Of a stretch of 64,000 nucleotides of DNA, positions 6,321 to 26,049 are shown in pieces. The position numbers and the translations under genes are program-made. Within the stretch, counting starts at the first letter, position 1, and each line of letters starts with the position of its first letter. The notes under the pieces are model-generated. The model was given only the letters and a program-made list of their open reading frames with translations, was not told the DNA's origin and did no database searches. This DNA comes from Escherichia coli (GTDB lineage: Bacteria > Pseudomonadota > Gammaproteobacteria > Enterobacterales > Enterobacteriaceae): the NCBI RefSeq assembly GCF_044324785.1, contig NZ_CP172127.1; one strand, written 5' to 3'.

Positions 6321-6324
6321 ATGT

Positions 6325-9304: not shown

Positions 9305-10159
9305 ATGGCAAAAAAAGTCTCAAAATTCTTTCGTATCGGCGTTGAGGGTGACACCTGTGACGGGCGTGTCATCAGTGCGCAGGATATTCAGGAAATGGCC
9401 GAAACCTTTGACCCGCGTGTCTATGGTTGCCGCATTAACCTGGAACATCTGCGCGGCATCCTGCCTGACGGCATTTTTAAACGTTATGGCGATGTGGCCG
9501 AACTGAAGGCCGAAAAGATTGACGATGATTCGGCGCTGAAAGGCAAATGGGCGCTGTTTGCGAAAATCACCCCGACCGATGACCTTATCGCGATGAACAA
9601 GGCCGCGCAGAAGGTCTACACCTCAATGGAAATTCAGCCGAACTTTGCCAACACCGGCAAATGTTATCTGGTGGGGCTGGCCGTCACCGATGACCCGGCA
9701 AGCCTCGGCACGGAATACCTGGAATTCTGCCGCACGGCAAAACACAACCCTCTGAACCGCTTCAAATTAAGCCCTGAAAACCTGATTTCAGTGGCAACGC
9801 CTGTTGAGCTGGAATTTGAAGACCTGCCTGAAACCGTGTTCACCGCCCTGACCGAAAAGGTGAAGTCCATTTTTGGCCGCAAACAGGCCAGCGATGATGC
9901 CCGTCTGAATGACGTGCATGAAGCGGTGACCGCTGTTGCTGAACATGTGCAGGAAAAACTGAGCGCCACTGAGCAGCGCCTCGCGGAGATGGAAACCGCC
10001 TTTTCCGCACTTAAGCAGGAGGTGACTGACAGGGCGGATGAAACCAGCCAGGCATTCACCCGCCTGAAAAACAGTCTCGACCACACCGAAAGTCTGACCC
10101 AGCAGCGCCGCAGCAAGGCCACCGGCGGTGGCGGTGACGCCCTGATGACGAACTGCTGA
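9305..10159 (+). CDS. O: Capsid scaffolding protein gpO (284 aa)
   Basis: ORF track starts at 9239. Trimmed to MAKKVSKFF, which matches the P2 gpO start and length. Confidence 0.9.
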   Translation: MAKKVSKFFRIGVEGDTCDGRVISAQDIQEMAETFDPRVYGCRINLEHLRGILPDGIFKRYGDVAELKAEKIDDDSALKGKWALFAKITPTDDLIAMNKAAQKVYTSMEIQPNFANTGKCYLVGLAVTDDPASLGTEYLEFCRTAKHNPLNRFKLSPENLISVATPVELEFEDLPETVFTALTEKVKSIFGRKQASDDARLNDVHEAVTAVAEHVQEKLSATEQRLAEMETAFSALKQEVTDRADETSQAFTRLKNSLDHTESLTQQRRSKATGGGGDALMTNC

Positions 10160-10216
10160 CCGGCATCAGTCATCCGGGAAAACCTTCACGATTAACCCTT
10201 AATTTCAGGAAAAACT

Positions 10217-11290
10217 ATGCGCCAGGAAACCCGCTTTAAATTTAATGCCTACCTGTCCCGTGTTGCCGAACTGAACGGCATCGACGCCGGTGATGTGTCG
10301 AAAAAATTCACCGTTGAACCGTCGGTCACCCAGACCCTGATGAACACCATGCAGGAGTCCTCTGACTTTCTGACCCGCATCAACATTGTGCCGGTCAGCG
10401 AAATGAAAGGGGAAAAAATTGGCATCGGTGTCACCGGCTCCATCGCCAGCACCACCGACACCGCCGGTGGCACCGAGCGTCAGCCGAAGGACTTCTCGAA
10501 GCTGGCGTCAAACAAGTACGAATGCGACCAGATTAACTTCGATTTTTATATCCGCTACAAAACGCTTGACCTGTGGGCGCGTTATCAGGATTTCCAGCTC
10601 CGTGTCCGTAACGCCATTATCAAACGCCAGTCCCTTGATTTCATCATGGCCGGTTTTAACGGCGTGAAGCGTGCCGAAACCTCTGACCGCAGCAGCAATC
10701 CGATGTTGCAGGATGTGGCGGTCGGCTGGCTGCAGAAATACCGCAATGAAGCACCGGCGCGCGTGATGAGCAAGGTCACTGACGAGGAAGGTCACACGAC
10801 CTCTGAGGTCATCCGCGTGGGTAAGGGCGGTGATTATGCCAGCCTTGATGCACTGGTGATGGATGCGACCAACAACCTGATCGAACCGTGGTATCAGGAA
10901 GACCCTGACCTTGTGGTGATAGTGGGACGTCAGTTACTGGCGGACAAGTATTTCCCCATCGTTAACAAGGAGCAGGACAACAGCGAAATGCTGGCCGCTG
11001 ACGTCATCATCAGCCAGAAACGCATCGGCAACCTGCCAGCGGTACGCGTCCCGTACTTCCCGGCGGATGCGATGCTCATCACGAAGCTGGAAAACCTGTC
11101 CATCTACTACATGGATGACAGCCATCGCCGCGTGATTGAGGAAAACCCGAAACTCGACCGCGTGGAGAACTACGAGTCAATGAACATTGATTACGTGGTG
11201 GAGGACTACGCCGCCGGTTGTCTGGTGGAAAAAATTAAGGTCGGTGATTTCTCCACACCGGCTAAAGCGACCGCAGAGCCGGGAGCGTAA
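10217..11290 (+). CDS. N: Major capsid protein gpN (357 aa)
   Basis: Length and position in the O-N-M-L head module. Confidence 0.9.
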   Translation: MRQETRFKFNAYLSRVAELNGIDAGDVSKKFTVEPSVTQTLMNTMQESSDFLTRINIVPVSEMKGEKIGIGVTGSIASTTDTAGGTERQPKDFSKLASNKYECDQINFDFYIRYKTLDLWARYQDFQLRVRNAIIKRQSLDFIMAGFNGVKRAETSDRSSNPMLQDVAVGWLQKYRNEAPARVMSKVTDEEGHTTSEVIRVGKGGDYASLDALVMDATNNLIEPWYQEDPDLVVIVGRQLLADKYFPIVNKEQDNSEMLAADVIISQKRIGNLPAVRVPYFPADAMLITKLENLSIYYMDDSHRRVIEENPKLDRVENYESMNIDYVVEDYAAGCLVEKIKVGDFSTPAKATAEPGA

Positions 11291-11293
11291 CCG

Positions 11294-12037
11294 ATGACGA
11301 GTCCCGCACAGCGCCACATGATGCGGGTCTCGGCAGCGATGACCGCGCAGCGGGAAGCCGCCCCGCTGCGACATGCAACTGTCTATGAGCAGATGCTGGT
11401 CAAGCTGGCCGCAGACCAGCGCACACTGAAAGCGATTTATTCAAAAGAGCTGAAGGCCGCGAAAAAACGCGAACTGCTGCCGTTCTGGTTGCCGTGGGTG
11501 AACGGCGTGCTGGAGCAGGGCAAAGGTGCACAGGATGACATTCTGATGACGGTCATGCTGTGGCGTCTGGATACCGGCGATATTGCCGGTGCGCTGGAGA
11601 TTGCCCGTTATGCCCTGAAGTACGGTCTGACCATGCCGGGTAAACACCGCCGCACCCCGCCGTACATGTTCACCGAGGAGGTGGCGCTTGCGGCCATGCG
11701 CGCTCACGCTGCCGGTGAGTCTGTGGATACCCGCCTGCTGACGGACACCCTTGAACTGACCGCCACGGCTGACATGCCTGATGAAGTGCGCGCAAAGCTG
11801 CACAAAATCACCGGTCTGTTTCTGCGTGACGCTGGTGATGCCGCAGGGGCGCTGGCGCACCTGCAACGTGCGACACAGCTCGACTGTCAGGCAGGCGTCA
11901 AAAAAGAGATTGAACGACTGGAGCGGGAACTGAAACCGAAGCCGGAGCCACAGCCAAAAGCGGCCACCCGCGCCCCGCGTAAGACCCGGAGTGCGACACC
12001 GGCAAAACGTGGACGCCCGAAAAAGAAAGCCAGTTAA
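11294..12037 (+). CDS. M: Terminase small (endonuclease) subunit gpM (247 aa)
   Basis: Position after N. Basic C-terminal tail. Confidence 0.9.
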   Translation: MTSPAQRHMMRVSAAMTAQREAAPLRHATVYEQMLVKLAADQRTLKAIYSKELKAAKKRELLPFWLPWVNGVLEQGKGAQDDILMTVMLWRLDTGDIAGALEIARYALKYGLTMPGKHRRTPPYMFTEEVALAAMRAHAAGESVDTRLLTDTLELTATADMPDEVRAKLHKITGLFLRDAGDAAGALAHLQRATQLDCQAGVKKEIERLERELKPKPEPQPKAATRAPRKTRSATPAKRGRPKKKAS

Positions 12038-12136
12038 CAACCGAATGCGCCCCGCGCCAGGGCGGCACGCCGGTCAGTGAGGGTGAATCACCTGACACTG
12101 CACCGGCGTCCACCGCCCGACTTTTCAGAGGTAGTC

Positions 12137-12646
12137 ATGATGACGCTGATTATTCCGCGAAAGGAGGCTCCCGTGTCCGGTGAGGGTACGGTGGTCATCC
12201 CGCAACCGGCAGGCGACGAGCCGGTGATTAAAAACACGTTCTTTTTTCCCGATATCGACCCGAAGCGCGTCCGGGAACGTATGCGCCTTGAGCAGACCGT
12301 CGCCCCCGCCCGTCTGCGAGAGGCCATCAAGTCAGGCATGGCTGAAACGAATGCGGAGCTGTACGAGTACCGCGAACAGAAAATTGCTGCCGGTTTTACG
12401 CGTCTGGTGGACGTCCCGGCGGACGACATCGACGGTGAAAGCATCAAAGTTTTTTATTACGAGCGCGCCGTGTGTGCGATGGCGACCGCGTCGCTTTATG
12501 AACGTTATCGCGGTGTGGATGCCAGTGCGAAAGGCGACAAGAAGGCCGACAGCATTGACAGCACCATTGATGAACTGTGGCGGGATATGCGCTGGGCGGT
12601 GGCGCGTATCCAGGACAAGCCACGCTGCATCGTGAGTCAAATCTGA
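12137..12646 (+). CDS. L: Head completion protein gpL (169 aa)
   Basis: ORF track starts at 12077. Trimmed to MMTLIIPRKE, consistent with P2 gpL length. Confidence 0.85.
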   Translation: MMTLIIPRKEAPVSGEGTVVIPQPAGDEPVIKNTFFFPDIDPKRVRERMRLEQTVAPARLREAIKSGMAETNAELYEYREQKIAAGFTRLVDVPADDIDGESIKVFYYERAVCAMATASLYERYRGVDASAKGDKKADSIDSTIDELWRDMRWAVARIQDKPRCIVSQI

Positions 12647-12849
12647 TGAAGACCTTTGCGCTACAGGGCGACACGCTCGACGCCATTTGTGTCCGGTATT
12701 ACGGGCGCACTGAGGGCGTGGTCGAGGCCGTGCTCGCCGCAAATCCGGGACTGGCTGAACTGGGTGCGGTGCTGCCGCACGGCACCGCCGTCGAACTGCC
12801 CGACGTTCAGACCGCGCCCGTGGCTGAAACTGTCAATCTGTGGGAGTAA
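12646..12849 (+). CDS. X: Tail protein gpX (67 aa)
   Basis: ATG overlaps the L stop (ATGA). Translation MKTFALQGDTLDAICVRYYGR. Confidence 0.85.
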   Translation: MKTFALQGDTLDAICVRYYGRTEGVVEAVLAANPGLAELGAVLPHGTAVELPDVQTAPVAETVNLWE

Positions 12850-12852
12850 CAC

Positions 12853-13134
12853 ATGACAGCAGAAGAAAAAAGCGTCCTGTCGCTTTTCATGATTGGGGTG
12901 CTGATTGTTGTCGGCAAGGTGCTTGCCGGTGGTGAACCCATTACCCCGCGTCTGTTTATCGGGCGCATGTTGCTCGGTGGTTTTGTCTCGATGGTTGCCG
13001 GTGTTGTTCTGGTGCAGTTCCCTGACCTGTCACTGCCTGCGGTGTGCGGCATCGGCTCCATGCTGGGTATCGCCGGTTATCAGGTGATTGAGATTGCCAT
13101 TCAGCGCCGCTTTAAGGGCAGGGGGAAACAGTAA
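12853..13134 (+). CDS. Y: Holin gpY (93 aa)
   Basis: Small hydrophobic protein with transmembrane segments, immediately upstream of the endolysin. Confidence 0.85.
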   Translation: MTAEEKSVLSLFMIGVLIVVGKVLAGGEPITPRLFIGRMLLGGFVSMVAGVVLVQFPDLSLPAVCGIGSMLGIAGYQVIEIAIQRRFKGRGKQ

Positions 13135-13631
13135 TGCAGGTAATTAACACGCATCAGAATATCGCCGCCTTTCTCGACATGCTGGCCGTGTCCGAAGGGA
13201 CGGCGAATCATCCGCTGACGAAAAACCGGGGCTATGACGTGATAGTCACCGGACTGGACGGAAAGCCGGAAATTTTCACCGACTACAGTGACCACCCGTT
13301 CGCACATGGCCGACCGGCGAAGGTGTTTAACCGTCGCGGTGAAAAATCAACGGCCTCCGGTCGCTATCAGCAGCTTTACCTGTTCTGGCCGCATTACCGC
13401 AAACAGCTTGCCCTGCCGGATTTCAGTCCGTTGTCACAGGACAGACTCGCCATTCAGTTGATCCGCGAACGCGGTGCACTGGATGACATCCGGGCGGGAC
13501 GTATTGAGCGCGCCATTTCACGCTGTCGCAATATCTGGGCGTCCCTGCCGGGTGCCGGTTACGGTCAGCGTGAGCATTCACTGGAAAAACTGGTCACCGT
13601 CTGGCGTACCGCTGGCGGCGTACCGGCTTAA
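13134..13631 (+). CDS. K: Endolysin (lysozyme-like) gpK (165 aa)
   Basis: Position in the lysis cassette, size, and start overlapping the holin stop. Confidence 0.9.
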   Translation: MQVINTHQNIAAFLDMLAVSEGTANHPLTKNRGYDVIVTGLDGKPEIFTDYSDHPFAHGRPAKVFNRRGEKSTASGRYQQLYLFWPHYRKQLALPDFSPLSQDRLAIQLIRERGALDDIRAGRIERAISRCRNIWASLPGAGYGQREHSLEKLVTVWRTAGGVPA

Positions 13632-13645
13632 ACGGAGTAAACACC

Positions 13646-14071
13646 ATGAAGAAATTATCCCTTTCACTGATGCTGAACGTGTCGCTGGCGCTGATGCTGG
13701 CACTGTCCCTGATTTACCCGCAGAGCGTGGCCGTCAGTTTTGTCGCTGCCTGGGCGATTCTGGCGACGGTTATCTGTGTGGTTGCCGGTGGTGTCGGCGT
13801 TTATGCCACTGAGTATGTGCTGGAACGCTACGGGCGGGAGCTGCCGCCGGAGTCGCTGGCCGTGAAGATTGTCATGTCGCTGTTTTTGCAGCCAGTGCCG
13901 TGGTGCAGACGGGCGGCGGCTCTGGTGGTGATGGTGGCGACATTTATCTCGCTGGTCGCTGCCGGGTGGATTTTTACCGCGCTGATTTATCTCGTGGCGT
14001 CGGTGTTCTTCCGGCTGATACGTACGGCCTGCCGTCAACGTCTTGAGGGGCGGGAACCATGTCAAAGCTGA
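13646..14071 (+). CDS. lysA: Lysis timing protein LysA (141 aa, membrane)
   Basis: Hydrophobic ORF following K, as in P2. Confidence 0.8.
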   Translation: MKKLSLSLMLNVSLALMLALSLIYPQSVAVSFVAAWAILATVICVVAGGVGVYATEYVLERYGRELPPESLAVKIVMSLFLQPVPWCRRAAALVVMVATFISLVAAGWIFTALIYLVASVFFRLIRTACRQRLEGREPCQS

Positions 14072-14484
14072 TGATTGTGATGGTTGTGTTGTTATCGCTG
14101 GCGGTGGCGGGGCTGTTTCTGGCGAAGCATGAAAACGCCAGCCTGCGCGCCTCGCTGGACAGGGTGAACAACGTCGCCAGTGAACAGCAGACGACCATCA
14201 CCATGCTGAAAAATCAGCTTCATGTTGCCCTCACCAGGGCAGACAAAAACGAGCTGGCGCAGGTGGCACTGCGTCAGGAACTGGAGAACGCCGCGAAGCG
14301 TGAAGCACAGCGCGAGAAAACCATCACGAGGTTACTTAATGAAAACGAAGATTTTCGCCGCTGGTACGGCGCTGACCTGCCTGATGCTGTGCGCCGGTTG
14401 CACCAGCGCCCCGCCTGCACCGACGCCAGTGATTGTCCACAACGCCTGCCCGAAAGTGAGCCTTTGCCCGATGCCGGGCAGTGA
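14059..14484 (+). CDS. lysB: LysB, Rz-like inner-membrane spanin (141 aa)
   Basis: N-terminal transmembrane segment followed by a coiled-coil-like region. Position after lysA. Confidence 0.8.
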   Translation: MSKLMIVMVVLLSLAVAGLFLAKHENASLRASLDRVNNVASEQQTTITMLKNQLHVALTRADKNELAQVALRQELENAAKREAQREKTITRLLNENEDFRRWYGADLPDAVRRLHQRPACTDASDCPQRLPESEPLPDAGQ

Positions 14485-14629
14485 CCCGCAGACGAACGGT
14501 GATTTAAGTGCCGATATCCGGCAGCTTGAGAACGCGCTGGCACGCTGTGCCAGCCAGGTAAAAATGATTAAACACTGTCAGGACGAAAACGATGCTCAAA
14601 CCCGACAGCCTGCGCAGGGCGCTGACTGA
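14339..14629 (+). CDS. lysC: LysC, Rz1-like outer-membrane lipoprotein spanin (96 aa), embedded out of frame in lysB
   Basis: Internal start MKTKIFAAGTALTCLMLCAGC with lipobox LCAGC. Lies in the +1 frame overlapping the 3' part of lysB and the start of R. Confidence 0.7.
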   Translation: MKTKIFAAGTALTCLMLCAGCTSAPPAPTPVIVHNACPKVSLCPMPGSDPQTNGDLSADIRQLENALARCASQVKMIKHCQDENDAQTRQPAQGAD

Positions 14630-15059
14630 TGCCGTCACGGTGCTGAAAACCAGTCCCGAGATGTTGCGGATATTCGTGGATAACGGGAGTATTGCCTCCA
14701 CGCTGGCGACGTCGTTGTCATTCGAAAAGCGTTACACGCTCAATGTGATTGTGACCGACTTTACCGGTGATTTTGACCTGCTCATCGTGCCGGTGCTGGC
14801 GTGGCTGCGGGAAAATCAGCCCGACATCATGACCACCGACGAAGGTCAGAAAAAAGGTTTCACGTTTTATGCAGACATCAACAATGACAGCAGCTTTGAT
14901 ATCAGCATCAGCCTGATGCTGACCGAGCGCACGCTGGTCAGTGAGGTGGACGGCGCGCTGCATGTGAAGAATATCCCGGAACCCACGCCGCCGGAGCCGG
15001 CCACCCGCCCGATGGAGCTTTATATCAATGGCGAACTGGTGAGCAAGTGGGATGAATGA
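14592..15059 (+). CDS. R: Tail completion protein gpR (155 aa)
   Basis: Position and size. Confidence 0.85.
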   Translation: MLKPDSLRRALTDAVTVLKTSPEMLRIFVDNGSIASTLATSLSFEKRYTLNVIVTDFTGDFDLLIVPVLAWLRENQPDIMTTDEGQKKGFTFYADINNDSSFDISISLMLTERTLVSEVDGALHVKNIPEPTPPEPATRPMELYINGELVSKWDE

Positions 15060-15504
15060 GTTTAAGCGTTTTGAAGACCGGCTGACCGGACTGACTGAGT
15101 CGCTGTCACCGTCAGGGCGTCGGCGACTGAGCGCCGAACTGGCGAAACGTCTGCGGCAGAGTCAGCAGCGTCGGGTGATGGCACAGAAAGCCCCGGATGG
15201 CACACCCTATGCGCCACGCCAGCAGCAGAGCGCCAGAAAAAAGACCGGTCGTGTTAAGCGAAAAATGTTTGCGAAACTTATCACCAGTCGTTTTTTGCAT
15301 ATCCGCGCCAGCCCGGAACAGGCATCAATGGAATTTTACGGCGGGAAGTCGCCGAAAATCGCCAGTGTGCATCAGTTCGGTCTGTCGGAAGAAACCCGGA
15401 AAGACGGTAAGAAAATTGATTATCCGGCGCGTCCTCTGCTCGGCTTTACCGGTGAGGATGTGCAGATGATTGAAGAGATTATCCTGGCTCACCTTGAGCG
15501 TTAG
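15052..15504 (+). CDS. S: Tail completion protein gpS (150 aa)
   Basis: Position and size. Overlaps the R stop. Confidence 0.85.
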   Translation: MNEFKRFEDRLTGLTESLSPSGRRRLSAELAKRLRQSQQRRVMAQKAPDGTPYAPRQQQSARKKTGRVKRKMFAKLITSRFLHIRASPEQASMEFYGGKSPKIASVHQFGLSEETRKDGKKIDYPARPLLGFTGEDVQMIEEIILAHLER

Positions 15505-16131
15505 TTTTATCCAGGCAGAGGCTGATGCGCAATTAAACATTGAGCGGCCATGCTGGTCGCTCAATGTTTAGAGGTTTATGAGTGATTTTTATTTGATGCT
15601 TTGTATTCTAAAACCTTCTTATTGGCGTAAAAGAATTTTGTATATGACAGGAATATAACCAGACCTGAAGTGAAATAGACGAGGGATAGTATTAATAATG
15701 CTTTTTTGTGACTGTTATTATCTTTAATCTCCTGGCTTAACCATTCGGAGTCCTCCTCGTTTAGCTGTAAGAGCTTATTGCAGGCGATCTCAGGAAGTGT
15801 GTCTTTTATAAATACGTTTTGCAGTCTCTTGCAATCGGCAAGGCTATAAGTTTTATTAAATTCAACTGCTTTATTTTTGAAGGATAAAAGAACTTTGTCA
15901 CTATAAACATAGTACATCATGTTTTTATATGGTATGCCTATGGCATCCCTTACTATAACGGATTGTACGTTGTGTATGTAACATGCGAGGAGAATGTAAA
16001 AAATACTGGCCAGAATTACAATTATTGTTTTAATTATGTGTAGACTGGCCCCCTGAATCTCCAGACAACCAATATCACTTAAATAAGTGATAGTCTTAAT
16101 ACTAGTTTTTAGACTAGTCATTGGAGAGCAG

Positions 16132-16497
16132 ATGATTGATGTCTTAGGACCGGAGAAACGCAGACGGCGTACTACACAGGAAAAGATCGCTATTGTTCAG
16201 CAGAGTTTTGAACCGGGAATGACGGTCTCCCTTGTTGCCCGGCAACACGGTGTGGCAGCCAGCCAGTTATTTCTCTGGCGCAAGCAATACCAGGAGGGAA
16301 GTCTTACTGCTGTGGCCGCAGGAGAGCAGGTCGTTCCTGCCTCTGAACTTGCTGCTGCCATGAAGCAGATTAAAGAACTCCAGCGCCTGCTCGGCAAAAA
16401 AACGATGGAAAATGAACTCCTTAAAGAAGCCGTTGAATACGGGCGTGCAAAAAAGTGGATAGCGCACGCGCCCTTATTGCCCGGGGATGGGGAGTAA
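16132..16497 (+). CDS. insC: IS2 transposase OrfA, InsC (121 aa)
   Basis: Start [24 protein letters not shown] with upstream GGAGAG Shine-Dalgarno. HTH-containing N-terminus. The GTG at 16087 in the ORF track is rejected as the start. Confidence 0.9.
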
Positions 16498-17360
16498 GCT
16501 TAGTCAGCCGTTGTCTCCGGGTGTCGCGTGCGCAGTTGCACGTAATTCTCAGACGAACCGATGACTGGAAAGATGGTCGCCGCAGCCGTCACTCAGATGA
16601 TACGGATGTGCTTCTCCGTATACACCATGTTATCGGAGAGCTGCCCACGTATGGTTATCGTCGGGTATGGGCGCTGCTTCGCAGACAGGCCGAACTTGAT
16701 GGTATGCCTGCGATCAATGCCAAACGTGTTTACCGGATCATGCGCCAGAATGCGCTGTTGCTTGAGCGAAAAACCGCTGTACCGCCATCGAAACGGGCAC
16801 ATACTGGCAAAGTGGCCGTGAAAGAAAGCAATCAACGATGGTGCTCTGACGGGTTCGAGTTCCGCTGTGATAACGGAGAAAAACTGCGAGTCACGTTCGC
16901 GCTGGACTGCTGTGACCGTGAGGCACTGCACTGGGCAGTCACTACGGGCGGCTTCGACAGTGAAACAGTACAGGACGTAATGCTGGGAGCGGTGGAACGC
17001 CGCTTCGGCAACGAGCTTCCGGCGTCTCCAGTAGAGTGGCTGACGGATAATGGTTCATGCTACCGGGCTAATGAAACACGGCAGTTTGCCCGGATGTTGG
17101 GGCTTGAACCGAAGAACACGGCGGTGCGGAGTCCGGAGAGTAACGGCATAGCAGAGAGCTTCGTGAAAACGATAAAGCGTGACTACATCAGTATCATGCC
17201 TAAACCAGACGGGTTAACGGCAGCAAAGAACCTTGCAGAGGCGTTCGAGCATTATAACGAATGGCATCCGCATAGTGCACTGGGTTATCGCTCGCCACGG
17301 GAATATCTGCGGCAGCAGGCCAGTAATGGGTTAAGTGATAACAGGTGTCTGGAAATATAG
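16455..17360 (+). CDS. insD: IS2 transposase OrfB, InsD (301 aa, DDE catalytic domain)
   Basis: Overlaps insC in the -1 frame, the typical IS3-family frameshift arrangement. Translation [19 protein letters not shown].... Confidence 0.9.
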
Positions 17361-17780
17361 GGGCAAATCCAATGTGTGGTGGTTTTGTTATGTCACCCCA
17401 GATGCGAGTAAGAAAAAAATACGATGTTTTTAGTTTTCCATCAATCAGTCCCTGCTGTATCATTCTCACATTTTCAATGCCTGATACATTGATTCCGTTA
17501 ATTATTTTAAATAGTTGAATGTCGCGCCACTCGCGGTCAAGTCTTTTTAATTTTTTGTCTGAATATCCAAAATTGAAATAATGTGCAATAAGCCTCATAA
17601 GGTTACTTTTACCAAAGCTAAAAAATGCTAATACTGCAAAGCTACAAAGGAAAAAAACGATTAGCCCCCACACATTAGTCACATTATAGCTGACCATTAC
17701 GCTCTCCTTGAATGTTGTCTGGTAGTTCTACAAATGAATCCAGATAGCATAACTTTTATATATTGTGCAATCTCACATGC

Positions 17781-18416
17781 ATGAACACTCTCGCAAATAT
17801 TCAGGAACTCGCGCGTGCACTGCGCAACATGATCCGCACCGGTATTATCGTCGAAACCGACCTTAACGCCGGTCGCTGCCGTGTGCAGACCGGCGGCATG
17901 TGCACCGACTGGCTTCAGTGGCTGACCCATCGCGCCGGACGTTCGCGCACATGGTGGGCACCTTCCGTGGGGGAACAGGTGCTGATTCTGGCCGTGGGCG
18001 GTGAACTCGACACGGCGTTCGTTCTGCCGGGGATTTATTCCGGCGATAACCCCGCGCCGTCTGCGTCGGCGGATGCCCTGCATATCCGTTTCCCTGACGG
18101 GGCGGTGATTGAGTATGAACCTGAAACCAGTGCGCTCACGGTAAGCGGAGTTAAAACGGCCAGCGTGATGGCTTCTGATTCTGTTACTGCCACGGTGCCG
18201 GTGGTTATGGTGAAAGCATCAACCCGCATCACCCTGGACACACCGGAAGTGGTCTGCACCAACAAACTGACTACCGGCACGCTGGAAGTGCAGAAGGGCG
18301 GGACGATGCGCGGCAACATTGAACACACCGGCGGTGAACTCTCATCAAACGGTAAGGTACTGCATACCCATAAACACCCCGGCGACAGCGGCGGCACAAC
18401 CGGGAGTCCTTTATGA
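17781..18416 (+). CDS. V: Baseplate spike/assembly protein gpV (211 aa)
   Basis: ORF track starts at 17763. Trimmed to MNTLANIQELARALRN. Confidence 0.9.
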   Translation: MNTLANIQELARALRNMIRTGIIVETDLNAGRCRVQTGGMCTDWLQWLTHRAGRSRTWWAPSVGEQVLILAVGGELDTAFVLPGIYSGDNPAPSASADALHIRFPDGAVIEYEPETSALTVSGVKTASVMASDSVTATVPVVMVKASTRITLDTPEVVCTNKLTTGTLEVQKGGTMRGNIEHTGGELSSNGKVLHTHKHPGDSGGTTGSPL

Positions 18417-18760
18417 CAGCGCGTTATCTCGGAATGAATCGCAGTGATGGCCTGACTGTCACTGACCTTGAGCATATCAGCCAGAGTATCGGCGATATCC
18501 TGCGCACACCGGTCGGCTCACGGGTGATGCGTCGTGATTACGGCTCGTTGCTGGCATCAATGATTGACCAGCCGCAGACCCCGGCGCTTGAGTTGCAGAT
18601 TAAGGTCGCCTGTTACATGGCGGTGCTGAAATGGGAACCCCGCGTCACCCTGTCATCCGTCACCACTGAGCGCAGTTTTGACGGGCGAATGACGGTCACG
18701 TTAACCGGCCAGCACAACGACACCGGCCAGCCACTTTCATTAACCATCCCTGTGAGTTGA
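18413..18760 (+). CDS. W: Baseplate protein gpW (115 aa)
   Basis: Position and size. Overlaps the V stop. Confidence 0.9.
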   Translation: MTARYLGMNRSDGLTVTDLEHISQSIGDILRTPVGSRVMRRDYGSLLASMIDQPQTPALELQIKVACYMAVLKWEPRVTLSSVTTERSFDGRMTVTLTGQHNDTGQPLSLTIPVS

Positions 18761-18764
18761 AACC

Positions 18765-19673
18765 ATGCCGATTATCGACCTGAACCAGCTACCCGCACCG
18801 GATGTGGTCGAGGAGCTGGACTTTGAAAGCATTCTCGCTGAACGCAAGGCGACACTGATTTCCCTTTACCCGGAAGATCAGCAGGAGGCGGTCGCCCGTA
18901 CCCTGACACTGGAATCTGAGCCTCTCGTCAAACTGCTGGAAGAAAATGCTTATCGTGAGCTTATCTGGCGTCAGCGTGTGAATGAGGCCGCACGGGCGGT
19001 GATGCTGGCCTGTGCCGCCGGTAATGACCTTGATGTGATTGGTGCCAATTACAACACCACGCGCCTGACTATCACCCCGGCAGATGATTCGACCATTCCG
19101 CCGACACCGGCAGTGATGGAATCTGACACCGATTATCGGCTGCGTATTCAGCAGGCGTTTGAAGGTTTAAGCGTCGCCGGGTCGGTGGGTGCCTATCAGT
19201 ATCATGGCCGCAGTGCCGACGGGCGTGTCGCGGATATCTCTGTCACCAGTCCGTCTCCGGCCTGCGTCACTATCTCTGTGCTGTCACGTGAAAATAACGG
19301 CGTCGCATCCGAAGACCTGCTGGCTGTGGTGCGTAACGCCCTTAATGGCGAGGACGTCAGGCCGGTGGCCGACCGCGTGACCGTGCAGTCTGCCGCCATC
19401 GTTGAATACCAGATAAACGCCACGCTTTACCTTTACCCTGGTCCCGAAAGCGAACCCATCCGCGCTGCCGCTGTGAAAAAGCTGGAAGCGTATATCACGG
19501 CACAGCACAGGCTGGGGCGCGACATCCGTCTGTCTGCCATTTATGCCGCTTTGCATGTGGAAGGTGTGCAGCGTGTCGAACTGGCTGCACCACTGGCCGA
19601 CATCGTGCTCAACAGTACGCAGGCGTCTTTCTGTACCGAATACCGCGTCGTGACCGGAGGCTCGGATGAGTGA
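18765..19673 (+). CDS. J: Baseplate protein gpJ (302 aa)
   Basis: Position and size. Confidence 0.9.
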   Translation: MPIIDLNQLPAPDVVEELDFESILAERKATLISLYPEDQQEAVARTLTLESEPLVKLLEENAYRELIWRQRVNEAARAVMLACAAGNDLDVIGANYNTTRLTITPADDSTIPPTPAVMESDTDYRLRIQQAFEGLSVAGSVGAYQYHGRSADGRVADISVTSPSPACVTISVLSRENNGVASEDLLAVVRNALNGEDVRPVADRVTVQSAAIVEYQINATLYLYPGPESEPIRAAAVKKLEAYITAQHRLGRDIRLSAIYAALHVEGVQRVELAAPLADIVLNSTQASFCTEYRVVTGGSDE

Positions 19674-20196
19674 TTCGCGACTGCTGCCGACCGGCTCATC
19701 ACCGCTTGAGGTCGCCGCCGCAAAAGCCTGTGCGGAAATTGAAAAAACGCCGGTCAGTATTCGTGAGCTGTGGAACCCGGACACCTGTCCGGCAAATCTG
19801 CTGCCGTGGCTGGCGTGGGCGTTTTCGGTCGACAGGTGGGATGAAAAGTGGCCGGAAGCGACAAAACGCGCCGTTATCCGCGATGCGTATTTCATCCACT
19901 GTCATAAAGGCACAATAGGTGCAATCCGGCGTGTGGTGGAGCCGCTCGGCTATCTCATCAACGTGACGGAGTGGTGGGAAAACAGTGACCCGCCCGGCAC
20001 CTTCCGGCTTGATATTGGTGTACTGGAAAGCGGCATCACAGAGGCAATGTATCAGGAAATGGAACGGCTGATTGCTGATGCCAAACCTGCAAGCCGCCAC
20101 CTTATTGGCCTGAACATTACCCGGGACATTCCCGGCTACCTGTTCGCCGGTGGTGTGGCTTACGACGGCGATGTAATTACGGTTTACCCCGGATAA
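19666..20196 (+). CDS. I: Baseplate/tail fibre attachment protein gpI (176 aa)
   Basis: Position and size. Overlaps the J stop. Confidence 0.9.
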   Translation: MSDSRLLPTGSSPLEVAAAKACAEIEKTPVSIRELWNPDTCPANLLPWLAWAFSVDRWDEKWPEATKRAVIRDAYFIHCHKGTIGAIRRVVEPLGYLINVTEWWENSDPPGTFRLDIGVLESGITEAMYQEMERLIADAKPASRHLIGLNITRDIPGYLFAGGVAYDGDVITVYPG

Positions 20197-20206
20197 GTGA
20201 GGAATA

Positions 20207-22525
20207 ATGAGCACAAAATTCAGAACCGTTATCACCACTGCCGGTGCAGCAAAGCTGGCAGCGGCAACCGCACCGGGAGGGCGGAAGGTCAACATTACCA
20301 CGATGGCCGTCGGGGATGGCGGTGGTAAATTGCCTGTCCCGGATGCCGGACAGACCGGGCTTATCCACGAAGTCTGGCGACATGCGCTGAACAAAATCAG
20401 CCAGGACAAACGAAACAGTAATTATATTATCGCAGAGCTGGTTATTCCGCCGGAGGTGGGCGGTTTCTGGATGCGTGAGCTTGGCCTGTACGATGATGCG
20501 GGAACGTTAATTGCTGTGGCGAACATGGCCGAAAGTTATAAGCCAGCTCTCGCCGAAGGCTCAGGGCGTTCGCAGACCTGTCGCATGGTCATCATCGTCA
20601 GCAGTGTGGCCTCAGTGGAGCTGACCATTGACACCACAACAGTGATGGCGACGCAGGATTACGTTGATGACAAAATTGCAGAGCACGAACAGTCACGACG
20701 TCACCCGGACGCCTCGCTGACCGCCAAAGGTTTTACTCAGTTAAGCAGTGCGACCAACAGCACGTCTGAAACACTGGCCGCAACGCCGAAAGCGGTAAAG
20801 GCCGCGTATGACCTTGCTAACGGGAAATATACTGCGCAGGATGCCACCACAGCGCGAAAAGGTCTTGTCCAGCTCAGTAGTGCCACCAACAGCACGTCTG
20901 AAACGCTCGCTGCAACACCAAAAGCGGTAAAAGCAGCATATGACCTGGCTAACGGGAAATATACCGCACAGGACGCCACCACCGCGCGAAAAGGCCTTGT
21001 CCAGCTAAGTAGCGTCACCAACAGCGATTCTGAAACGCTTGCGGCAACGCCAAAGGCGGTTAAGACAGCGTATGACCTTGCTAACGGGAAATACACTGCA
21101 CAGGATGCCACCACAGCGCGAAAAGGGCTTGTCCAGCTCAGTAGCGCCACCAACAGTGATTCTGAAACCCTCGCGGCAACGCCAAAAGCAGTGAAGTCTG
21201 CCTATGACAATGCTGAAAAACGTCTTCAGAAAGATCAGAACGGTGCGGATATTCCGGGAAAGGATACCTTCACGAAAAATATCGGTGCCTGTCGTGCTTA
21301 TAGCGGCGCTTTGAGCACTGAAGCCGGAAACTGGACAACCGCTCAGTTTATTGAATGGCTGGATTCCCGTGGTGCATTTAATCATCCGTACTGGATGTGC
21401 AAAGGCTCCTGGTCATATGCAAATAACAAAATCATTACGGATACCGGATGTGGTGATATCCACCTGGCTGGTTGTGTCGTCGAGGTCATGGGAACTAAAT
21501 CTGCAATCACTATCCGAGTGACCACGCCGACAACATCAAGCGGTGGCGGTACAACCAGCGCGCAATTCACTTACATTAATCATGGGGACGGCTACTCCCC
21601 CGGCTGGCGTCGTGACTGGAATCGTCAGGGCGACGCAATGACCGGAACGATTAATCAGGATGGCGGAAGCCAGAATGCCTATATGTCTACGGCCTTATGT
21701 TCAGGCACCAGAGGCGGCAAAAAATATCTCAGAAAGTTTCGTGGTGGAGAAGGAGACACTATCTGGCATGAAACAGTACAGGGCGGGGTAGTTCGCTGGG
21801 CGACTGGTAATACTGATGCTCAGGAAGAATTATCACTCAGCTCCGCTTATGGTCTCCGTTCAAGAGGTGAGATTACATCAAGCAGTGCTAATGGTCTGCG
21901 CATTGCTTATGGCAATTATGGATTCTTTATCAGGAATGATGGCAGCAGCACTTATTTTATGTTGACTAAATCAGGTGACAGATTAGGCACTTATAATAAT
22001 TTAAGACCACTGATTATAAATGATGCCACGGGTGCTGTATCAATGGGGCATGGCCTGAGTGTTACTGGTGATATTGCCTCAAGTACCAAAGTACGTGCCG
22101 GTAGCGGGAAAAAATTCACGGTCAGCAGCAGTAATACATCCACGAAGGAAGCCGCATTCAATTTGTGGGGAAACTCAAGTCGTCCGGTGGTGGCTGAATT
22201 AGGTGATGATGCAGGCTGGCATTTTTACAGTCAGAGAAATACAGATAACAGCATCACTTTTGCTGTTAACGGGCAGGTATCACCATCTAACTATAGTAAT
22301 TTTGATTCACGCTATGTCCGGGATATCCGGCTTGGTGGTGCTGCCACATACAAACCTGCGAACAATGGCATGACATGGACACATCAGGCACCGTCCGGGT
22401 GTGTATATTCCGGCATTATTGTTCAGGATACCGGCTCAAACTCTGCCGATAACATTGGTGGCGTATATTACAGACCGGTGCAGAAATACATTAACGGGAC
22501 ATGGTATAACGTGGCACAGGTATAA
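20207..22525 (+). CDS. H: Tail fibre protein gpH (772 aa) with internal tandem repeats and divergent distal half
   Basis: Conserved N-terminus MSTKFRTVITTAGAAKLAAA, then a repeat block, then an AT-richer C-terminal half. Confidence 0.85.
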   Translation: MSTKFRTVITTAGAAKLAAATAPGGRKVNITTMAVGDGGGKLPVPDAGQTGLIHEVWRHALNKISQDKRNSNYIIAELVIPPEVGGFWMRELGLYDDAGTLIAVANMAESYKPALAEGSGRSQTCRMVIIVSSVASVELTIDTTTVMATQDYVDDKIAEHEQSRRHPDASLTAKGFTQLSSATNSTSETLAATPKAVKAAYDLANGKYTAQDATTARKGLVQLSSATNSTSETLAATPKAVKAAYDLANGKYTAQDATTARKGLVQLSSVTNSDSETLAATPKAVKTAYDLANGKYTAQDATTARKGLVQLSSATNSDSETLAATPKAVKSAYDNAEKRLQKDQNGADIPGKDTFTKNIGACRAYSGALSTEAGNWTTAQFIEWLDSRGAFNHPYWMCKGSWSYANNKIITDTGCGDIHLAGCVVEVMGTKSAITIRVTTPTTSSGGGTTSAQFTYINHGDGYSPGWRRDWNRQGDAMTGTINQDGGSQNAYMSTALCSGTRGGKKYLRKFRGGEGDTIWHETVQGGVVRWATGNTDAQEELSLSSAYGLRSRGEITSSSANGLRIAYGNYGFFIRNDGSSTYFMLTKSGDRLGTYNNLRPLIINDATGAVSMGHGLSVTGDIASSTKVRAGSGKKFTVSSSNTSTKEAAFNLWGNSSRPVVAELGDDAGWHFYSQRNTDNSITFAVNGQVSPSNYSNFDSRYVRDIRLGGAATYKPANNGMTWTHQAPSGCVYSGIIVQDTGSNSADNIGGVYYRPVQKYINGTWYNVAQV
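20726..21225 (+). repeat. About 3.8 tandem copies of a 132-bp (44-aa) unit inside H
   Basis: Peptide unit QLSSATNS(T/D)SETLAATPKAVKAAYDLANGKYTAQDATTARKGLV recurs with Q codons at 20738, 20870, 21002 and 21134. Confidence 0.9.
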
Positions 22526-22528
22526 TTT

Positions 22529-23056
22529 ATGCAGCATTTGATAAATATAACCGCGGGTAATCCAAAAACGGTTGAACAATATCAATTGACAAAGGACTTT
22601 GATGTTGTCTGGTTTTTTACAGAAGATGGTAAGAACTGGTACGAAGAACAAAAGTATTTTGCTGATGACACGATAAAAATAGCGTACGACAAGGATAATA
22701 TTATCCGCTATGTGGAAAAAGATGTGACAGCTATCAGACCAGATGGATTAAGTGTGGTTGAAGTGGCGGATATTACTGCTAACCGACGGGCGGACATTTC
22801 AGGGAACTGGATGTTTAAGGACGGCAAAGTGATTAAACGCATTTATACGGCAGAGGAATTGCAGCAGCAGGCAGAAAACCGGAAAGCCAGACTTCTTGCA
22901 GATGCTGAATCCGTGATTTTGCCACTGGAGCGCGCTGTCAGGCTGAACATGGCAACAGATGAGGAGCGTAGCCGACTGGAAGCATGGGAACGCTACAGTG
23001 TTCTGGTCAGCCGTGTGGATCCTGCAAATCCTGAATGGCCGGAAATGCCGCAATAA
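22529..23056 (+). CDS. G: Tail fibre assembly chaperone gpG (175 aa)
   Basis: Immediately downstream of H. AT-rich like the distal part of H. Confidence 0.8.
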
Positions 23057-23381
23057 GTGATATGATCTCTTGTGTTAGTTAACATAGCTATAGTACAGAG
23101 TAAGGCCTAATCTGACAGTCCGCTCTGTGCTAGGAGCGGACATTATCAACATCATGCTATGTTAATGTATAAAGTGAAGATAAATTGATATAATAAGGCC
23201 ACCATGAATATTTCAGAACCTTGTCAAAAGGTTTGCACATACTCTAGTCTTGCAATGTGTAGTTGATAGTTCCACTGAGGAGGTTCTTCGACATTCTTTA
23301 TAAAAATGTACATTTTCATCAATAATAAGAGGTAAAAGGGCTTTAATGGTTTTTTGTGGATGTTATTTCTACTCATAAATT

Positions 23382-23410
23382 TTGAGATAAGTATTGAGTT
23401 GAGATAAAAT
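23382..23410 (+). promoter_or_regulatory. Putative sigma70 promoter for the 175-aa cargo gene
   Basis: -35 TTGAGA at 23382..23387, 17-bp spacer, -10 TAAAAT at 23405..23410. AAGGA Shine-Dalgarno about 8 nt before the ATG at 23446. Confidence 0.4.
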
Positions 23411-23445
23411 TAAACTCGTTAAATTCACCTTTAAAAGGATAAAGC

Positions 23446-23973
23446 ATGGACTGGAAAGATCTTGCATCAACCGCTGTGTATACAGGTATGACTGATGAAA
23501 ATGAAAGCATATGGGAACGTGTTGATGGGGTTGACGTTGCCTTCATAGGTGCCTTTCTTACTGCGCACTTGAGCCTTGAAAAGTATATTACTGATTATCT
23601 TGGATTAAGATATCCTTCGTTAGCTTGGGGTGATGCAAAACTCACATTTTCACAAAAAATAGCTTTAATACAACATGAGCCTGCAACCCCCCCTTATGAT
23701 GAAATATATTTAAGAATAAAAGACTTTAACAGCATAAGAAATAAAATCAGTCATCAATTGAATTATCAGATTACGGATAAAGAAAAAAGTAAGTTTGTGG
23801 ACTTCTACATGAAGATTACTAAAGCCAGTAAAACTAAACCAAATATTGATATTGATAACATGGCAGATTTGTTGGATTTTTTCGTATCGATGACAAAATC
23901 CTATTTTGCTAGTGCTATTTCTTGTTATCACTATAATAAAAAGGTTGCAGGTAAAAGTAATAAAATTGATTAA
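23446..23973 (+). CDS. Hypothetical cargo protein (175 aa) with Rx4H HEPN-like motif
   Basis: Very AT-rich gene in the G-to-FI gap, where P2 carries Z/fun. Motif IRNKISH (R-x4-H) in the middle of the protein. Good Shine-Dalgarno. Confidence 0.55.
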   Translation: MDWKDLASTAVYTGMTDENESIWERVDGVDVAFIGAFLTAHLSLEKYITDYLGLRYPSLAWGDAKLTFSQKIALIQHEPATPPYDEIYLRIKDFNSIRNKISHQLNYQITDKEKSKFVDFYMKITKASKTKPNIDIDNMADLLDFFVSMTKSYFASAISCYHYNKKVAGKSNKID

Positions 23974-24271
23974 TAAAACTGGACTTAGGGATAATTAATA
24001 TATAGACGTTCTATCATTTTTAGAGTGTGCGGCAGCTCCATACATTCATGCGGATGTCAGCACCTCGCTCAAAGCAGACAGTCAGATTTGATAGCGTTTG
24101 GACTATGTAAATAGTCAGTTGGAAAATGAGTGAGTACAAATCAGGACAGGCGGGCGAATTGCCCGCCTTTTCTTTATCTGTTGTTTCATCCACTGACCAG
24201 CCAGGTCAAATAGCGTCTCATGCTCTGCCCAACAGAAAATAGTTGCACCCATTAACCACGGAGTTAAACGG

Positions 24272-25462: not shown

Positions 25463-25474
25463 GGAGCCTGACCG

Positions 25475-25993: not shown

Positions 25994-26049
25994 TTTTCAT
26001 CCGGTCAGCCAGGCTGACCGGTTAACCCTGATTCAGAAGTGAGAAAACC

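What the first reader, a model, noticed from the sequence alone, without database searches (positions are those of the whole stretch)
15505..17780. Cargo membrane-protein gene between S and V inactivated by an intact IS2
P2 has S directly followed by V; here an AT-rich minus-strand gene is inserted. It is split by a full 1331-bp IS2 flanked by ATGTG direct repeats. Removing IS2 and one repeat copy restores a single 261-aa ORF with two hydrophobic helices. Small membrane proteins at such prophage positions are often superinfection-exclusion or abortive-infection factors. Its disruption suggests recent loss of a possibly costly function.
Basis: seen in the sequence. Interest (0 to 1): 0.5.

Follow-up and report, generated by a model that had tools for sequence, protein, structure and literature searches.

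The report
P2 gene orf30 split by IS2
A jumping gene (IS2) has very recently landed in orf30, a long-known, dispensable membrane-protein gene of phage P2 whose function is still unknown, so this is an ordinary knockout rather than a new cargo gene.

Summary
The sequence observation holds. A 1331-bp IS2-type element (window 16041-17371) sits between 5-bp ATGTG repeats. Removing it plus one repeat restores a 261-aa minus-strand ORF at 34% GC.

The premise is wrong. P2 does not have S directly followed by V. The restored protein is 99.2% identical to P2's own annotated, nonessential Orf30, which lies between S and V in P2.

- **Intact copies are common.** The gene is uninterrupted in 461 of 5426 complete E. 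coli genomes.
- **The insertion is recent.** E. coli EC77 carries the same prophage, 99.99% identical over 24.8 kb, with the site empty.
- **It has happened before.** A second, independent IS2 insertion lies 36 bp away in strain GPEC1054.
- **Loss is probably neutral.** Nothing shows the gene was costly.

Orf30 has three hydrophobic helices, not two. The predicted topology is N-terminus out and C-terminus in, with a conserved cytoplasmic loop and a periplasmic domain that always holds two cysteines. It belongs to PHROG 2407 (function unknown). Members only 17-25% identical keep the same S-V position in P2-like prophages. No defence, Pfam, PDB or fold match gives a function, so a role in phage exclusion remains a guess (about 0.3). 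Interest is low.

The parts
17372..17697 (-). 5' fragment of orf30 (gene nt 1-326, codons 1-108 plus 2 nt). It encodes TM1 and the whole conserved cytoplasmic loop, and includes the right copy of the target duplication.
   Evidence: 99.2% aa identity of the rejoined ORF to P2 Orf30
17200..17697 (-). Truncated fusion ORF that can still be translated: Orf30 aa 1-108 followed by 57 IS2-encoded residues (165 aa). It lacks TM2, the periplasmic domain and TM3.
   Evidence: ORF list and translation
17372..17376 (.). Right copy of the 5-bp target-site duplication ATGTG (orf30 nt 322-326, CACAT in gene sense)
   Evidence: the EC77 empty site has a single copy
16041..17371 (+). IS2-type insertion sequence (IS3 family), 1331 bp, with its transposase genes on the opposite strand to orf30
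   Evidence: length, inverted repeats; 95.7% gap-free to K-12 IS2A; 100% identical copies in many E. coli genomes
16132..16497 (+). IS2 insC (orfA, 121 aa), identical to K-12 InsC
16455..17360 (+). IS2 insD (orfB, 301 aa). The A6G -1 frameshift site lies at 16449-16455.
   Evidence: 291/302 compared positions identical to K-12 InsD
16036..16040 (.). Left copy of the 5-bp target-site duplication ATGTG
15576..16040 (-). 3' fragment of orf30 (gene nt 322-786). It encodes TM2, the periplasmic two-cysteine domain, TM3, the lysine-rich tail and the stop codon.
15535..15569 (.). Hairpin AAACATTGAGCG-N11-CGCTCAATGTTT between the convergent S and orf30 genes. It corresponds in position to P2's annotated putative rho-independent terminator of the O operon.
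   Evidence: sequence; P2 annotation 9397-9433
17698..17780 (.). 83-bp orf30-V intergenic region, identical to P2. In P2 it holds the Ogr activator-binding site and the late promoter pV. A strong AAGGAG ribosome-binding site for orf30 lies just upstream of its ATG. No orf30 promoter was identified.
   Evidence: identical 89 nt in window and P2; no consensus promoter on the minus strand here
15052..15504 (+). gpS (tail completion), flanking gene, intact
17781..18416 (+). gpV (baseplate spike), flanking gene, intact and divergent from orf30

Best explanation
**What it is (shown).** The window holds a P2-type (Peduovirus) prophage integrated next to the sRNA gene cyaR, downstream of yegQ. Between the tail-completion gene S and the baseplate-spike gene V it carries P2's own accessory gene orf30, transcribed divergently from V. 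An IS2-family element transposed into codon 108-109 of orf30, at the start of the second transmembrane helix, and made the usual 5-bp duplication.

**How recent (shown).** The insertion is very recent. An otherwise 99.99% identical prophage in E. coli EC77 has the empty site. Neither gene half has picked up any further change. The element is identical to active copies elsewhere.

**Consequence (shown / inferred).** It is shown that full-length Orf30 cannot be made. It is inferred that at most an N-terminal fragment fused to IS2-encoded residues remains, keeping TM1 and the cytoplasmic loop. All other prophage genes in the window remain intact except one frameshifted cargo gene near window 3947-3953 (see the passing notes).

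**Why it happened (inferred).** The knockout is most likely a neutral hit in a dispensable, AT-rich accessory gene, not selection against a costly function.

**What Orf30 is (predicted).**
- It is a three-helix inner-membrane protein with its N-terminus in the periplasm.
- An ~80-aa positively charged loop faces the cytoplasm. It is the most conserved part and carries the motif D-x-Q-L-F-[KR]-x-x-N-G-I-N-V.
- An ~85-aa periplasmic beta-sheet/helix domain carries an invariant pair of cysteines, probably a disulfide.
- The lysine-rich C-terminal tail is cytoplasmic.

**What it does (guess, about 0.3).** Its most likely role is a prophage-expressed envelope factor that interferes with other phages at or after DNA entry. 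No test here supports any specific function.
For: **Identity**
- The rejoined ORF is 99.2% identical to P2 Orf30 (AF063097, annotated 'nonessential') and sits in the same place and orientation.
- It matches phrog_2407 at E=4e-148.
- The prophage backbone is about 96% identical to P2.

**The event**
- The element is 1331 bp with an ATGTG duplication. It is 95.7% identical, gap-free, to K-12 IS2A, which also has a 5-bp duplication.
- 100% identical copies exist in other genomes.
- EC77 provides the empty site, with only three differences in 24.8 kb.

**Dispensability and neutrality**
- P2 relatives WPhi and L-413C lack the gene (PMC2771037).
- The P2-type S gene is in 1575 genomes, but P2-type orf30 is in only 463.

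**Real coding gene under constraint**
- All seven diverged alleles compared (down to 88% nt identity to the window; 86% between the two most diverged) are exactly 786 nt with no stop codon or indel.
- dN/dS is 0.42-0.53 between the more diverged alleles (0.25-0.33 for the four closest pairs, which have few substitutions), against 0.0-0.32 (mostly below 0.2) for R, S, V and W.

**Topology**
- Three hydrophobic segments.
- Net charge is +5 in loop 1 and +2 in the tail, and about 0 in loop 2. Loop 2 holds exactly two cysteines in 29 of 29 family members.
- The AlphaFold model has pLDDT 84 and pTM 0.75.

**Hints of a host-side or competitive role**
- Homologues 17-25% identical keep the S-V slot in Yersinia, Gibbsiella and other prophages. 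Of 92 IMG/VR loci, 86 have both V and S flanking; the other six lack one flank and are short loci of 2.8-3.6 kb, so the missing flank is probably cut by the end of the fetched DNA.
- One locus has tandem paralogues.
- A solitary copy is fixed next to cyaR in Enterobacter cloacae.
Against: - **Expression unknown.** No promoter for orf30 was found, so expression in the lysogen is unproven.
- **Neutrality not proven.** A second independent IS2 insertion lies 36 bp away in GPEC1054. In the same prophage a second cargo gene is frameshifted relative to EC77. Both could hint at selection or at an IS2 hot spot.
- **A fragment may persist.** The truncated N-terminal fragment might keep some activity.
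- **Source genome not found.** It is not among the 5426 complete E. coli genomes searched, so the junction cannot be cross-checked in a second assembly.
Confidence: 0.88

Rival explanations
1. One reading: a novel cargo gene, absent from P2, was acquired between S and V. It encodes a small superinfection-exclusion or abortive-infection membrane protein and was lost because it was costly.
For: - The gene is AT-rich (34% GC against 57-58%).
- It is membrane-embedded.
- It lies at a locus the literature calls a horizontally acquired variable region (PMC3091744).
- Other P2-like contigs carry extra cargo in the same slot.
Against: - P2 itself has this gene, at 99.2% identity, so it is not new cargo.
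- There is no similarity to any PADLOC defence model or Pfam family.
- The gene is uninterrupted in 461 of 463 carrier genomes, and dN/dS stays below 1 (0.25-0.53), which argues against a general cost.
Confidence: 0.08
2. Recurrent, non-neutral inactivation. Either orf30 is a preferred IS2 target, or its loss is favoured in some hosts, so that IS2 knockouts arise repeatedly.
For: - There are two independent IS2 insertions, made by two different IS2 variants in opposite orientations. They lie 36 bp apart, at gene nt 322-326 (the window) and 358-362 (GPEC1054).
- The window's prophage also has a 1-bp deletion that splits a second cargo gene, while all structural genes are intact.
Against: - Only 2 of 463 carrier genomes lack a near-full-length copy.
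- A rough estimate of my own gives about 0.4 chance hits: 786 bp in a roughly 5-Mb genome, a median of 4 IS2 places per genome, and 463 carriers. Finding one in the database is therefore unremarkable.
- The second cargo lesion lies in a T7/T8 homopolymer and may be a sequencing error.
Confidence: 0.15
3. Orf30 serves the phage's own lytic cycle, for example membrane-associated tail or baseplate assembly, lysis timing, or protecting progeny from adsorbing to debris. It would then not be a lysogenic-conversion factor.
For: - It keeps a fixed position beside V and S across very divergent P2-like phages.
- Its start codon lies about 20 nt from the conserved Ogr-site element of the late promoter pV, so its expression could be coupled to late transcription.
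Against: - It is annotated nonessential in P2 and is absent from WPhi and L-413C (PMC2771037).
- It is transcribed opposite to both late operons.
- A solitary copy is kept in Enterobacter cloacae chromosomes with no phage genes around it.
Confidence: 0.15
4. Assembly artefact: the IS2 was misplaced by the assembler and orf30 is really intact.
For: - IS elements are common sources of misassembly.
- The source genome could not be found for cross-checking.
Against: - The exact 5-bp target duplication, the full-length element and clean junctions are the signature of true transposition.
- A comparable real event exists in a finished genome.
Confidence: 0.02

Closest known systems
Bacteriophage P2 orf30 (AF063097 9439-10224; protein AAD03281; PHROG 2407)
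   Same: It is the same gene: 99.2% aa identity, 261 aa, between S and V, divergent from V, with identical intergenic regions.
   Different: Here it is interrupted at codon 108-109 by IS2. The exact allele, once rejoined, matches E. coli EC77 at 100% rather than P2 at 99.5% nt.
IS2 (IS3 family; K-12 IS2A, insC/insD)
   Same: 1331 bp, gap-free alignment, identical InsC, A6G frameshift site and a 5-bp target duplication.
   Different: Only 95.7% nt identity to K-12 IS2A. It is a variant that RefSeq labels 'IS3 family transposase', and identical copies are widespread in E. coli.
The other P2 accessory (moron) loci: tin/old between A and Q, and Z/fun between G and FI
   Same: These are AT-rich, nonessential genes at fixed variable slots of P2-like phages (PMC3091744; PMC9122126; bioRxiv 10.1101/2024.10.15.618418). 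The window also has AT-rich cargo at both of those slots.
   Different: tin, old and fun have shown anti-phage phenotypes. orf30 has none reported in the papers I could search. The two hotspot surveys read here describe other P2 hotspots and do not mention the S-V slot. Unlike those slots, the S-V slot is usually held by one protein family in very divergent forms.
Small inner-membrane superinfection-exclusion proteins encoded inside or beside tail genes (HK97 gp15, T4 Imm, T5 Llp/phi80 Cor). Cited from my own knowledge, not tested here.
   Same: A prophage- or phage-encoded membrane protein lying next to tail genes, nonessential and fast-evolving. This is a functional analogy only.
   Different: No sequence or fold similarity to anything annotated was detected. 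Orf30 is larger (261 aa, 3 TM, two soluble domains). No exclusion phenotype is known.
Pfam DUF6216 (PF19723), uncharacterised proteobacterial membrane proteins
   Same: Similar size. 3 of 29 Orf30-family members match at E<=0.001 and 6 at E<=0.1. One AFDB structural neighbour is annotated DUF6216.
   Different: P2 Orf30 itself does not match the Pfam model even at E<=10. DUF6216 has no known function either.

Membership tests
P2 Orf30 / PHROG 2407 | Full-length sequence homology to P2 Orf30 | tested here: met
   99.2% aa identity over 261 of 261 residues; phrog_2407 E=4.1e-148 over 1-261
P2 Orf30 / PHROG 2407 | Position between gpS and gpV, transcribed divergently from V | tested here: met
   Window S 15052-15504(+), orf30 17697-15576(-), V 17781-18416(+). 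Same layout in P2 and in 86 of 92 IMG/VR loci; the other six lack one flank and are short loci, probably cut at an end.
P2 Orf30 / PHROG 2407 | Intact open reading frame of about 250-265 aa | tested here: not met
   The ORF is split by IS2. It is restored only in silico. This copy is a disrupted allele (pseudogene) of the family.
IS2 (IS3 family) | 1331-bp element with imperfect terminal inverted repeats | tested here: met
IS2 (IS3 family) | orfA/orfB (insC/insD) with an A6G -1 frameshift site | tested here: met
   InsC identical to K-12, InsD 291/302 compared positions, A6G at 16449-16455
IS2 (IS3 family) | 5-bp target-site duplication | tested here: met
   ATGTG on both sides. K-12 IS2A has ATTAC and GPEC1054 has ATTAT.
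IS2 (IS3 family) | Near-identity to the reference IS2 sequence | tested here: inconclusive
   95.7% nt identity, gap-free, to K-12 IS2A. It is a clear IS2 relative, at the border of what would be called an isoform.
Known anti-phage defence or superinfection-exclusion proteins | Homology to a described defence or exclusion protein | tested here: not met
   PADLOC 0 families at E<=1; no Pfam hit; no informative fold match
Known anti-phage defence or superinfection-exclusion proteins | Expression from the repressed prophage | not tested
   No promoter was identified by the consensus scan, and no transcriptome data for P2 lysogens were found in the papers searched.
Known anti-phage defence or superinfection-exclusion proteins | Reduced plating or DNA entry of a challenging phage | not testable with these tools
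   Needs an experiment
Pfam DUF6216 | Match to PF19723 above threshold | tested here: not met
   Orf30 has no hit at E<=10. Only 3 of 29 distant relatives match at E<=0.001.

The most novel reading that the evidence does not exclude
The Orf30 family (PHROG 2407) may not be a random moron. It may be a long-resident, fast-diversifying inner-membrane determinant of P2-like phages, held at the S-V slot across hosts from Escherichia to Yersinia and Gibbsiella. In this reading it acts at the envelope against competing phages. Supporting hints are its occasional duplication in tandem and its retention as a solitary host gene at the cyaR attachment site of Enterobacter cloacae after the prophage decayed. 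The window would then show one of at least two independent IS2 knockouts of this determinant.
Probability: 0.3. Interest if true: 0.45.

Novelty: already known. Interest (0 to 1): 0.2.

Why it matters
As submitted, it matters little. An IS2 hit in a dispensable prophage gene is routine genome decay, and the gene has been annotated in P2 since the genome was deposited.

The useful points are these.

- **The record is corrected.** The gene is P2 orf30, not new cargo.
- **A natural mutant pair exists.** The EC77 prophage (intact) and this prophage (IS2 knockout) are 99.99% identical. Together with the GPEC1054 allele they could be used to test what orf30 does.
- **orf30 is an open question.** It is the one classic P2 accessory locus with no reported function in the papers searched. 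The two hotspot surveys read here do not mention its slot.
- **The family is better described.** The family-wide features found here give concrete handles for that test: fixed position, three transmembrane helices, a conserved cytoplasmic motif, an invariant periplasmic cysteine pair, and a solitary copy in E. cloacae.

Tried and rejected
- **Function by homology.** PADLOC, Pfam on Orf30 and NCBIfam (only a sub-threshold hit of 15 bits against a cut-off of 120) found nothing. The PDB sequence-profile search gave only noise at E=0.08.
- **Word-indexed protein search.** It found only 5 clusters and understated the family. The full HMMER scan found 44 representatives.
- **The same junction elsewhere.** It is in 0 of 5426 complete E. 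coli genomes. Hits labelled 'IS2 | phage baseplate protein' (H53 and others) turned out to be an unrelated IS2 insertion inside a baseplate gene of another prophage.
- **Promoter for orf30.** The consensus scan found none on the minus strand near 17698-17900, and total counts did not exceed the shuffled controls. An alignment of V-orf30 intergenic regions showed only the conserved Ogr-site element.
- **Related loci.** The search for related loci on the whole-family alignment failed for lack of a conserved stretch. Two subfamily alignments worked.
- **Extra cargo genes in the S-V slot of other contigs.** There were no PADLOC hits. The only NCBIfam hit was a T6SS-immunity-like lipoprotein.
- **Literature.** No paper in the held library gives orf30 a function. 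The Christie & Calendar 2016 P2 review is not held. DUF6216 has no functional literature.
- **Remnants of S or V next to the solitary E. cloacae gene.** None were found by tblastn or blastn. The 'prophage remnant' reading therefore rests only on its position next to cyaR and its low GC content.
Full report
**1. The observation**

Reading window 14800-18400 and listing ORFs shows gpS at 15052-15504 (+) and gpV at 17781-18416 (+). Between them lies a low-GC stretch interrupted by an element with the ends TAGACTGGCCCC... and ...GGGGCAAATCCA.

A script gave these results.
- The element spans 16041-17371 and is 1331 bp, with imperfect terminal inverted repeats.
- ATGTG lies at 16036-16040 and at 17372-17376.
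- Removing the element and one repeat yields a single 261-aa minus-strand ORF from 17697 down to 15576.
- Its GC content is 34%, against 57-58% in the flanks.

The hydropathy scan finds three hydrophobic segments (aa 9-28, 109-131, 220-241), not two.

**2. What the gene is**

A tblastn search of the restored protein against 50,697 phage records hits bacteriophage P2 itself at 99.2% identity over all 261 residues. The feature there is annotated 'orf30: Orf30'. The P2 record places orf30 ('nonessential') at 9439-10224, between S and V on the opposite strand. It is flanked by the putative terminator of the O operon and by the Ogr-binding site and late promoter pV.

The literature already describes orf30 as a 786-bp ORF of unknown function between S and V. 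It is absent from WPhi and L-413C (PMC2771037). It is one of three loci (TO region, Z/fun, orf30) where P2-like phages carry horizontally acquired genes (PMC3091744; see also PMC6823313).

The prophage backbone (window 6000-30900) is about 96% identical to P2.

**3. What the insertion is, and how recent**

The element aligns gap-free over 1331 bp with K-12 IS2A at 95.7% identity. InsC is identical, InsD matches at 291 of 302 compared positions, and the A6G frameshift site is present. K-12 IS2A likewise has a 5-bp duplication. Copies 100% identical to the window's element occur in many E. coli chromosomes and plasmids.

The restored orf30 DNA is 100.0% identical to an uninterrupted gene in E. 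coli EC77. Local BLAST against the EC77 region shows 99.99% identity over window 3577-16041 and 17372-29697. The only differences are:
- the IS2 plus its duplication;
- a 1-bp deletion in a T-run near window 3947-3953;
- one SNP at 26349.

EC77 is thus the empty-site version of the same phage, and the insertion is very recent.

The host flanks are at most 98-98.5% identical to any of 5426 complete E. coli genomes. The orf30::IS2 junction occurs in none of them. The same phage therefore sits in two different host backgrounds, and the source genome is outside that collection.

**4. How common are intact and disrupted copies**

P2-type orf30 is present in 463 of 5426 complete E. coli genomes, and 461 of these have a near-full-length uninterrupted copy. 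The P2-type S gene is present in 1575 genomes. So roughly three in ten genomes with a P2-type S gene carry this orf30 type.

One of the two exceptions is strain GPEC1054. It has an independent IS2 insertion:
- the element is canonical IS2, 99.85% identical to K-12 IS2A;
- the duplication is ATTAT, at gene nt 358-362;
- the transposase is co-oriented with orf30.

This lies 36 bp from the window's site (nt 322-326), where the element is in the opposite orientation. Both insertions fall in the AT-rich stretch that encodes TM2.

By my rough estimate, a few thousand IS2 placements across 463 carriers and a 786-bp target give about 0.4 chance hits. One database case is therefore not significant, although a local hot spot cannot be excluded.

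**5. Is orf30 a real, constrained gene?**

Seven alleles were compared: the window, P2, two Yersinia phages, two Peduovirus isolates and vB_EcoM-12474II. All are exactly 786 nt with no indel or stop codon, although they diverge down to 88% nt identity from the window (86% between the two most diverged alleles). Nei-Gojobori dN/dS is 0.42-0.53 between the more diverged alleles and 0.25-0.33 for the four closest pairs, which have few substitutions. For R, S, V and W in the same genomes it ranges from 0.0 to 0.32 and is mostly below 0.2.

The protein is under purifying selection, but it evolves several times faster than its structural neighbours.

**6. The wider family**

The word-indexed search found only 5 clusters. 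A full HMMER scan of 1.84 billion representatives with a profile found 44, about 25 of them full-length (250-270 aa) and 17-31% identical to P2 Orf30. All ten distant members tested hit phrog_2407 strongly. P0026 finds P2 orf30 back by tblastn at E of about 1e-7.

Genomic contexts show a fixed position.
- P0026 (Yersinia spp.), P0032 (Gibbsiella greigii) and P0047 all lie between gpS and gpV of P2-like prophages, divergent from V.
- Of 92 IMG/VR loci recovered with two subfamily alignments, 86 have V upstream and S downstream, even where S is only 43-55% identical. The other six lack one flank; they are short loci (2.8-3.6 kb), so the flank is probably cut by the end of the fetched DNA.
- One contig has two divergent paralogues in tandem beside V.
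- A solitary member is present in many Enterobacter cloacae genomes. It lies between yegQ and yegS, 144 bp beyond the cyaR terminator. This is the same locus where the window's prophage is integrated (CyaR_RyeE at 30979-31064).

All members examined are 30-36% GC in flanks that are mostly 49-61% GC; in L011 the S-side flank, which includes the DUF4062 gene, is itself 34% GC. Pfam DUF6216 matches 3 of 29 members, but not Orf30 itself.

**7. Anatomy of the protein**

Across the 29-sequence alignment:
- the N-terminus has no positive charge;
- loop 1 (aa 29-108) has a mean net charge of +5 and is the most conserved segment, with the motif D-x-Q-L-F-[KR]-x-x-N-G-I-N-V and invariant G68 and G87;
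- loop 2 (aa 132-219) is about neutral and holds exactly two cysteines in every member;
- the C-terminal tail has a net charge of +2.

By the positive-inside rule this gives an N-out, C-in topology, with loop 1 cytoplasmic and loop 2 periplasmic. The cysteine pair fits a periplasmic disulfide.

AlphaFold with the 29-sequence alignment gives pLDDT 84 and pTM 0.75. It shows three long helices, a small helical loop-1 domain, and a four-strand sheet plus two helices in loop 2.

No annotated structural relative was found.

The IS2 sits exactly at the start of TM2. The remaining 165-aa ORF (17200-17697) keeps TM1 and the conserved loop, but loses everything beyond.

**8. Mechanism and rivals**

What is shown is the identity of the gene and element, the recency of the insertion, and the loss of the full-length protein.

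What is inferred is that the loss is neutral. The gene is nonessential and patchily distributed. It is intact in nearly all carriers and shows no sign of a general cost.

The function remains unknown. My best guess, at about 0.3, is an envelope-level factor acting on competing phages. The grounds are membrane location, fast evolution, a fixed slot beside tail genes, tandem duplication, and retention as a lone host gene in E. cloacae. No homology or fold evidence supports it.

A lytic-cycle role, an IS2 hot spot or selected loss, and an assembly artefact are the rivals. They are weighed in the report sections.

**9. Verdict**

The finding is real but ordinary, and its framing as new cargo relative to P2 is mistaken. 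Novelty: already known. Interest: 0.2. The only mildly novel thread is the family-level picture of Orf30. This natural knockout, together with its 99.99% identical intact twin, would help to test it.

Noticed in passing
window 3947-3953 (T-run); ORFs 3912-4445(-) and 3454-3915(-): Relative to the 99.99% identical EC77 prophage, the window has T7 instead of T8. This splits EC77's 330-aa 'O-methyltransferase' cargo gene into 177-aa and 153-aa ORFs. So a second accessory gene of this prophage is disrupted, or else this is a homopolymer sequencing error.
   Followed up: partly
window 2352-5908 (A-Q / tin-old hotspot): The AT-rich cargo here is not tin/old. It comprises a Dcm-like type II cytosine methyltransferase (2352-3503, PADLOC MTase_II E=8e-95), the split O-methyltransferase, and a 488-aa protein annotated as ATP-binding in EC77. 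The last two have no PADLOC hit.
   Followed up: partly
window 23446-23973 (Z/fun hotspot, 34% GC): A 175-aa hypothetical protein occupies the Z/fun slot between G and FI. It has no PADLOC hit.
   Followed up: partly
window 30979-31064 (-): The sRNA gene cyaR (Rfam CyaR_RyeE, 100.7 bits) lies just beyond the ogr end of the prophage, next to yegQ. The prophage is integrated at the cyaR locus.
   Followed up: yes
window 30900-64000 compared with window 3577-29697: The prophage is 99.99% identical to one in E. coli EC77 (bovine milk, Italy). The host flanks (yegQ, baeSR, mdtABCD) are at most 98-98.5% identical to any of 5426 complete E. coli genomes. This points to recent horizontal spread of the phage into a host lineage outside that collection.
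   Followed up: partly
L118 (E. coli GPEC1054, NZ_CM142793.1) 2170-3500: An independent insertion of canonical IS2 into orf30 at gene nt 358-362 (duplication ATTAT). It lies 36 bp from the window's site and in the opposite orientation.
   Followed up: yes
L015 2501-3265 (Enterobacter cloacae): A solitary Orf30-family gene (254 aa, 36% GC) lies 144 bp downstream of the cyaR terminator, between yegQ and yegS. No other phage genes are nearby, and it is conserved in many E. cloacae genomes. It may be a domesticated remnant of a P2-like prophage.
   Followed up: partly
L014 2501-3271 and 3400-4158: Two divergent Orf30-family paralogues (P0021 and P0044) lie in tandem beside a V-W-J' remnant.
   Followed up: partly
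L011 6877-8226; L109 3416-4237; L112 3379-4119; L033 1465-2399: In other P2-like contigs the S-V slot holds extra cargo next to the Orf30-family gene. Examples are a DUF4062 protein (449 aa), a 273-aa membrane protein, a 246-aa protein with a CxxC...REH motif, and a 180-aa protein plus a T6SS-immunity-like lipoprotein (NF045617, E=5e-20). None is in PADLOC.
   Followed up: partly
window 20207-22525: The tail-fibre gene H encodes 772 aa, and EC77's tail fibre gene is the same length. From memory, P2 gpH is about 669 aa, so the receptor-binding end probably differs from P2.
   Followed up: no
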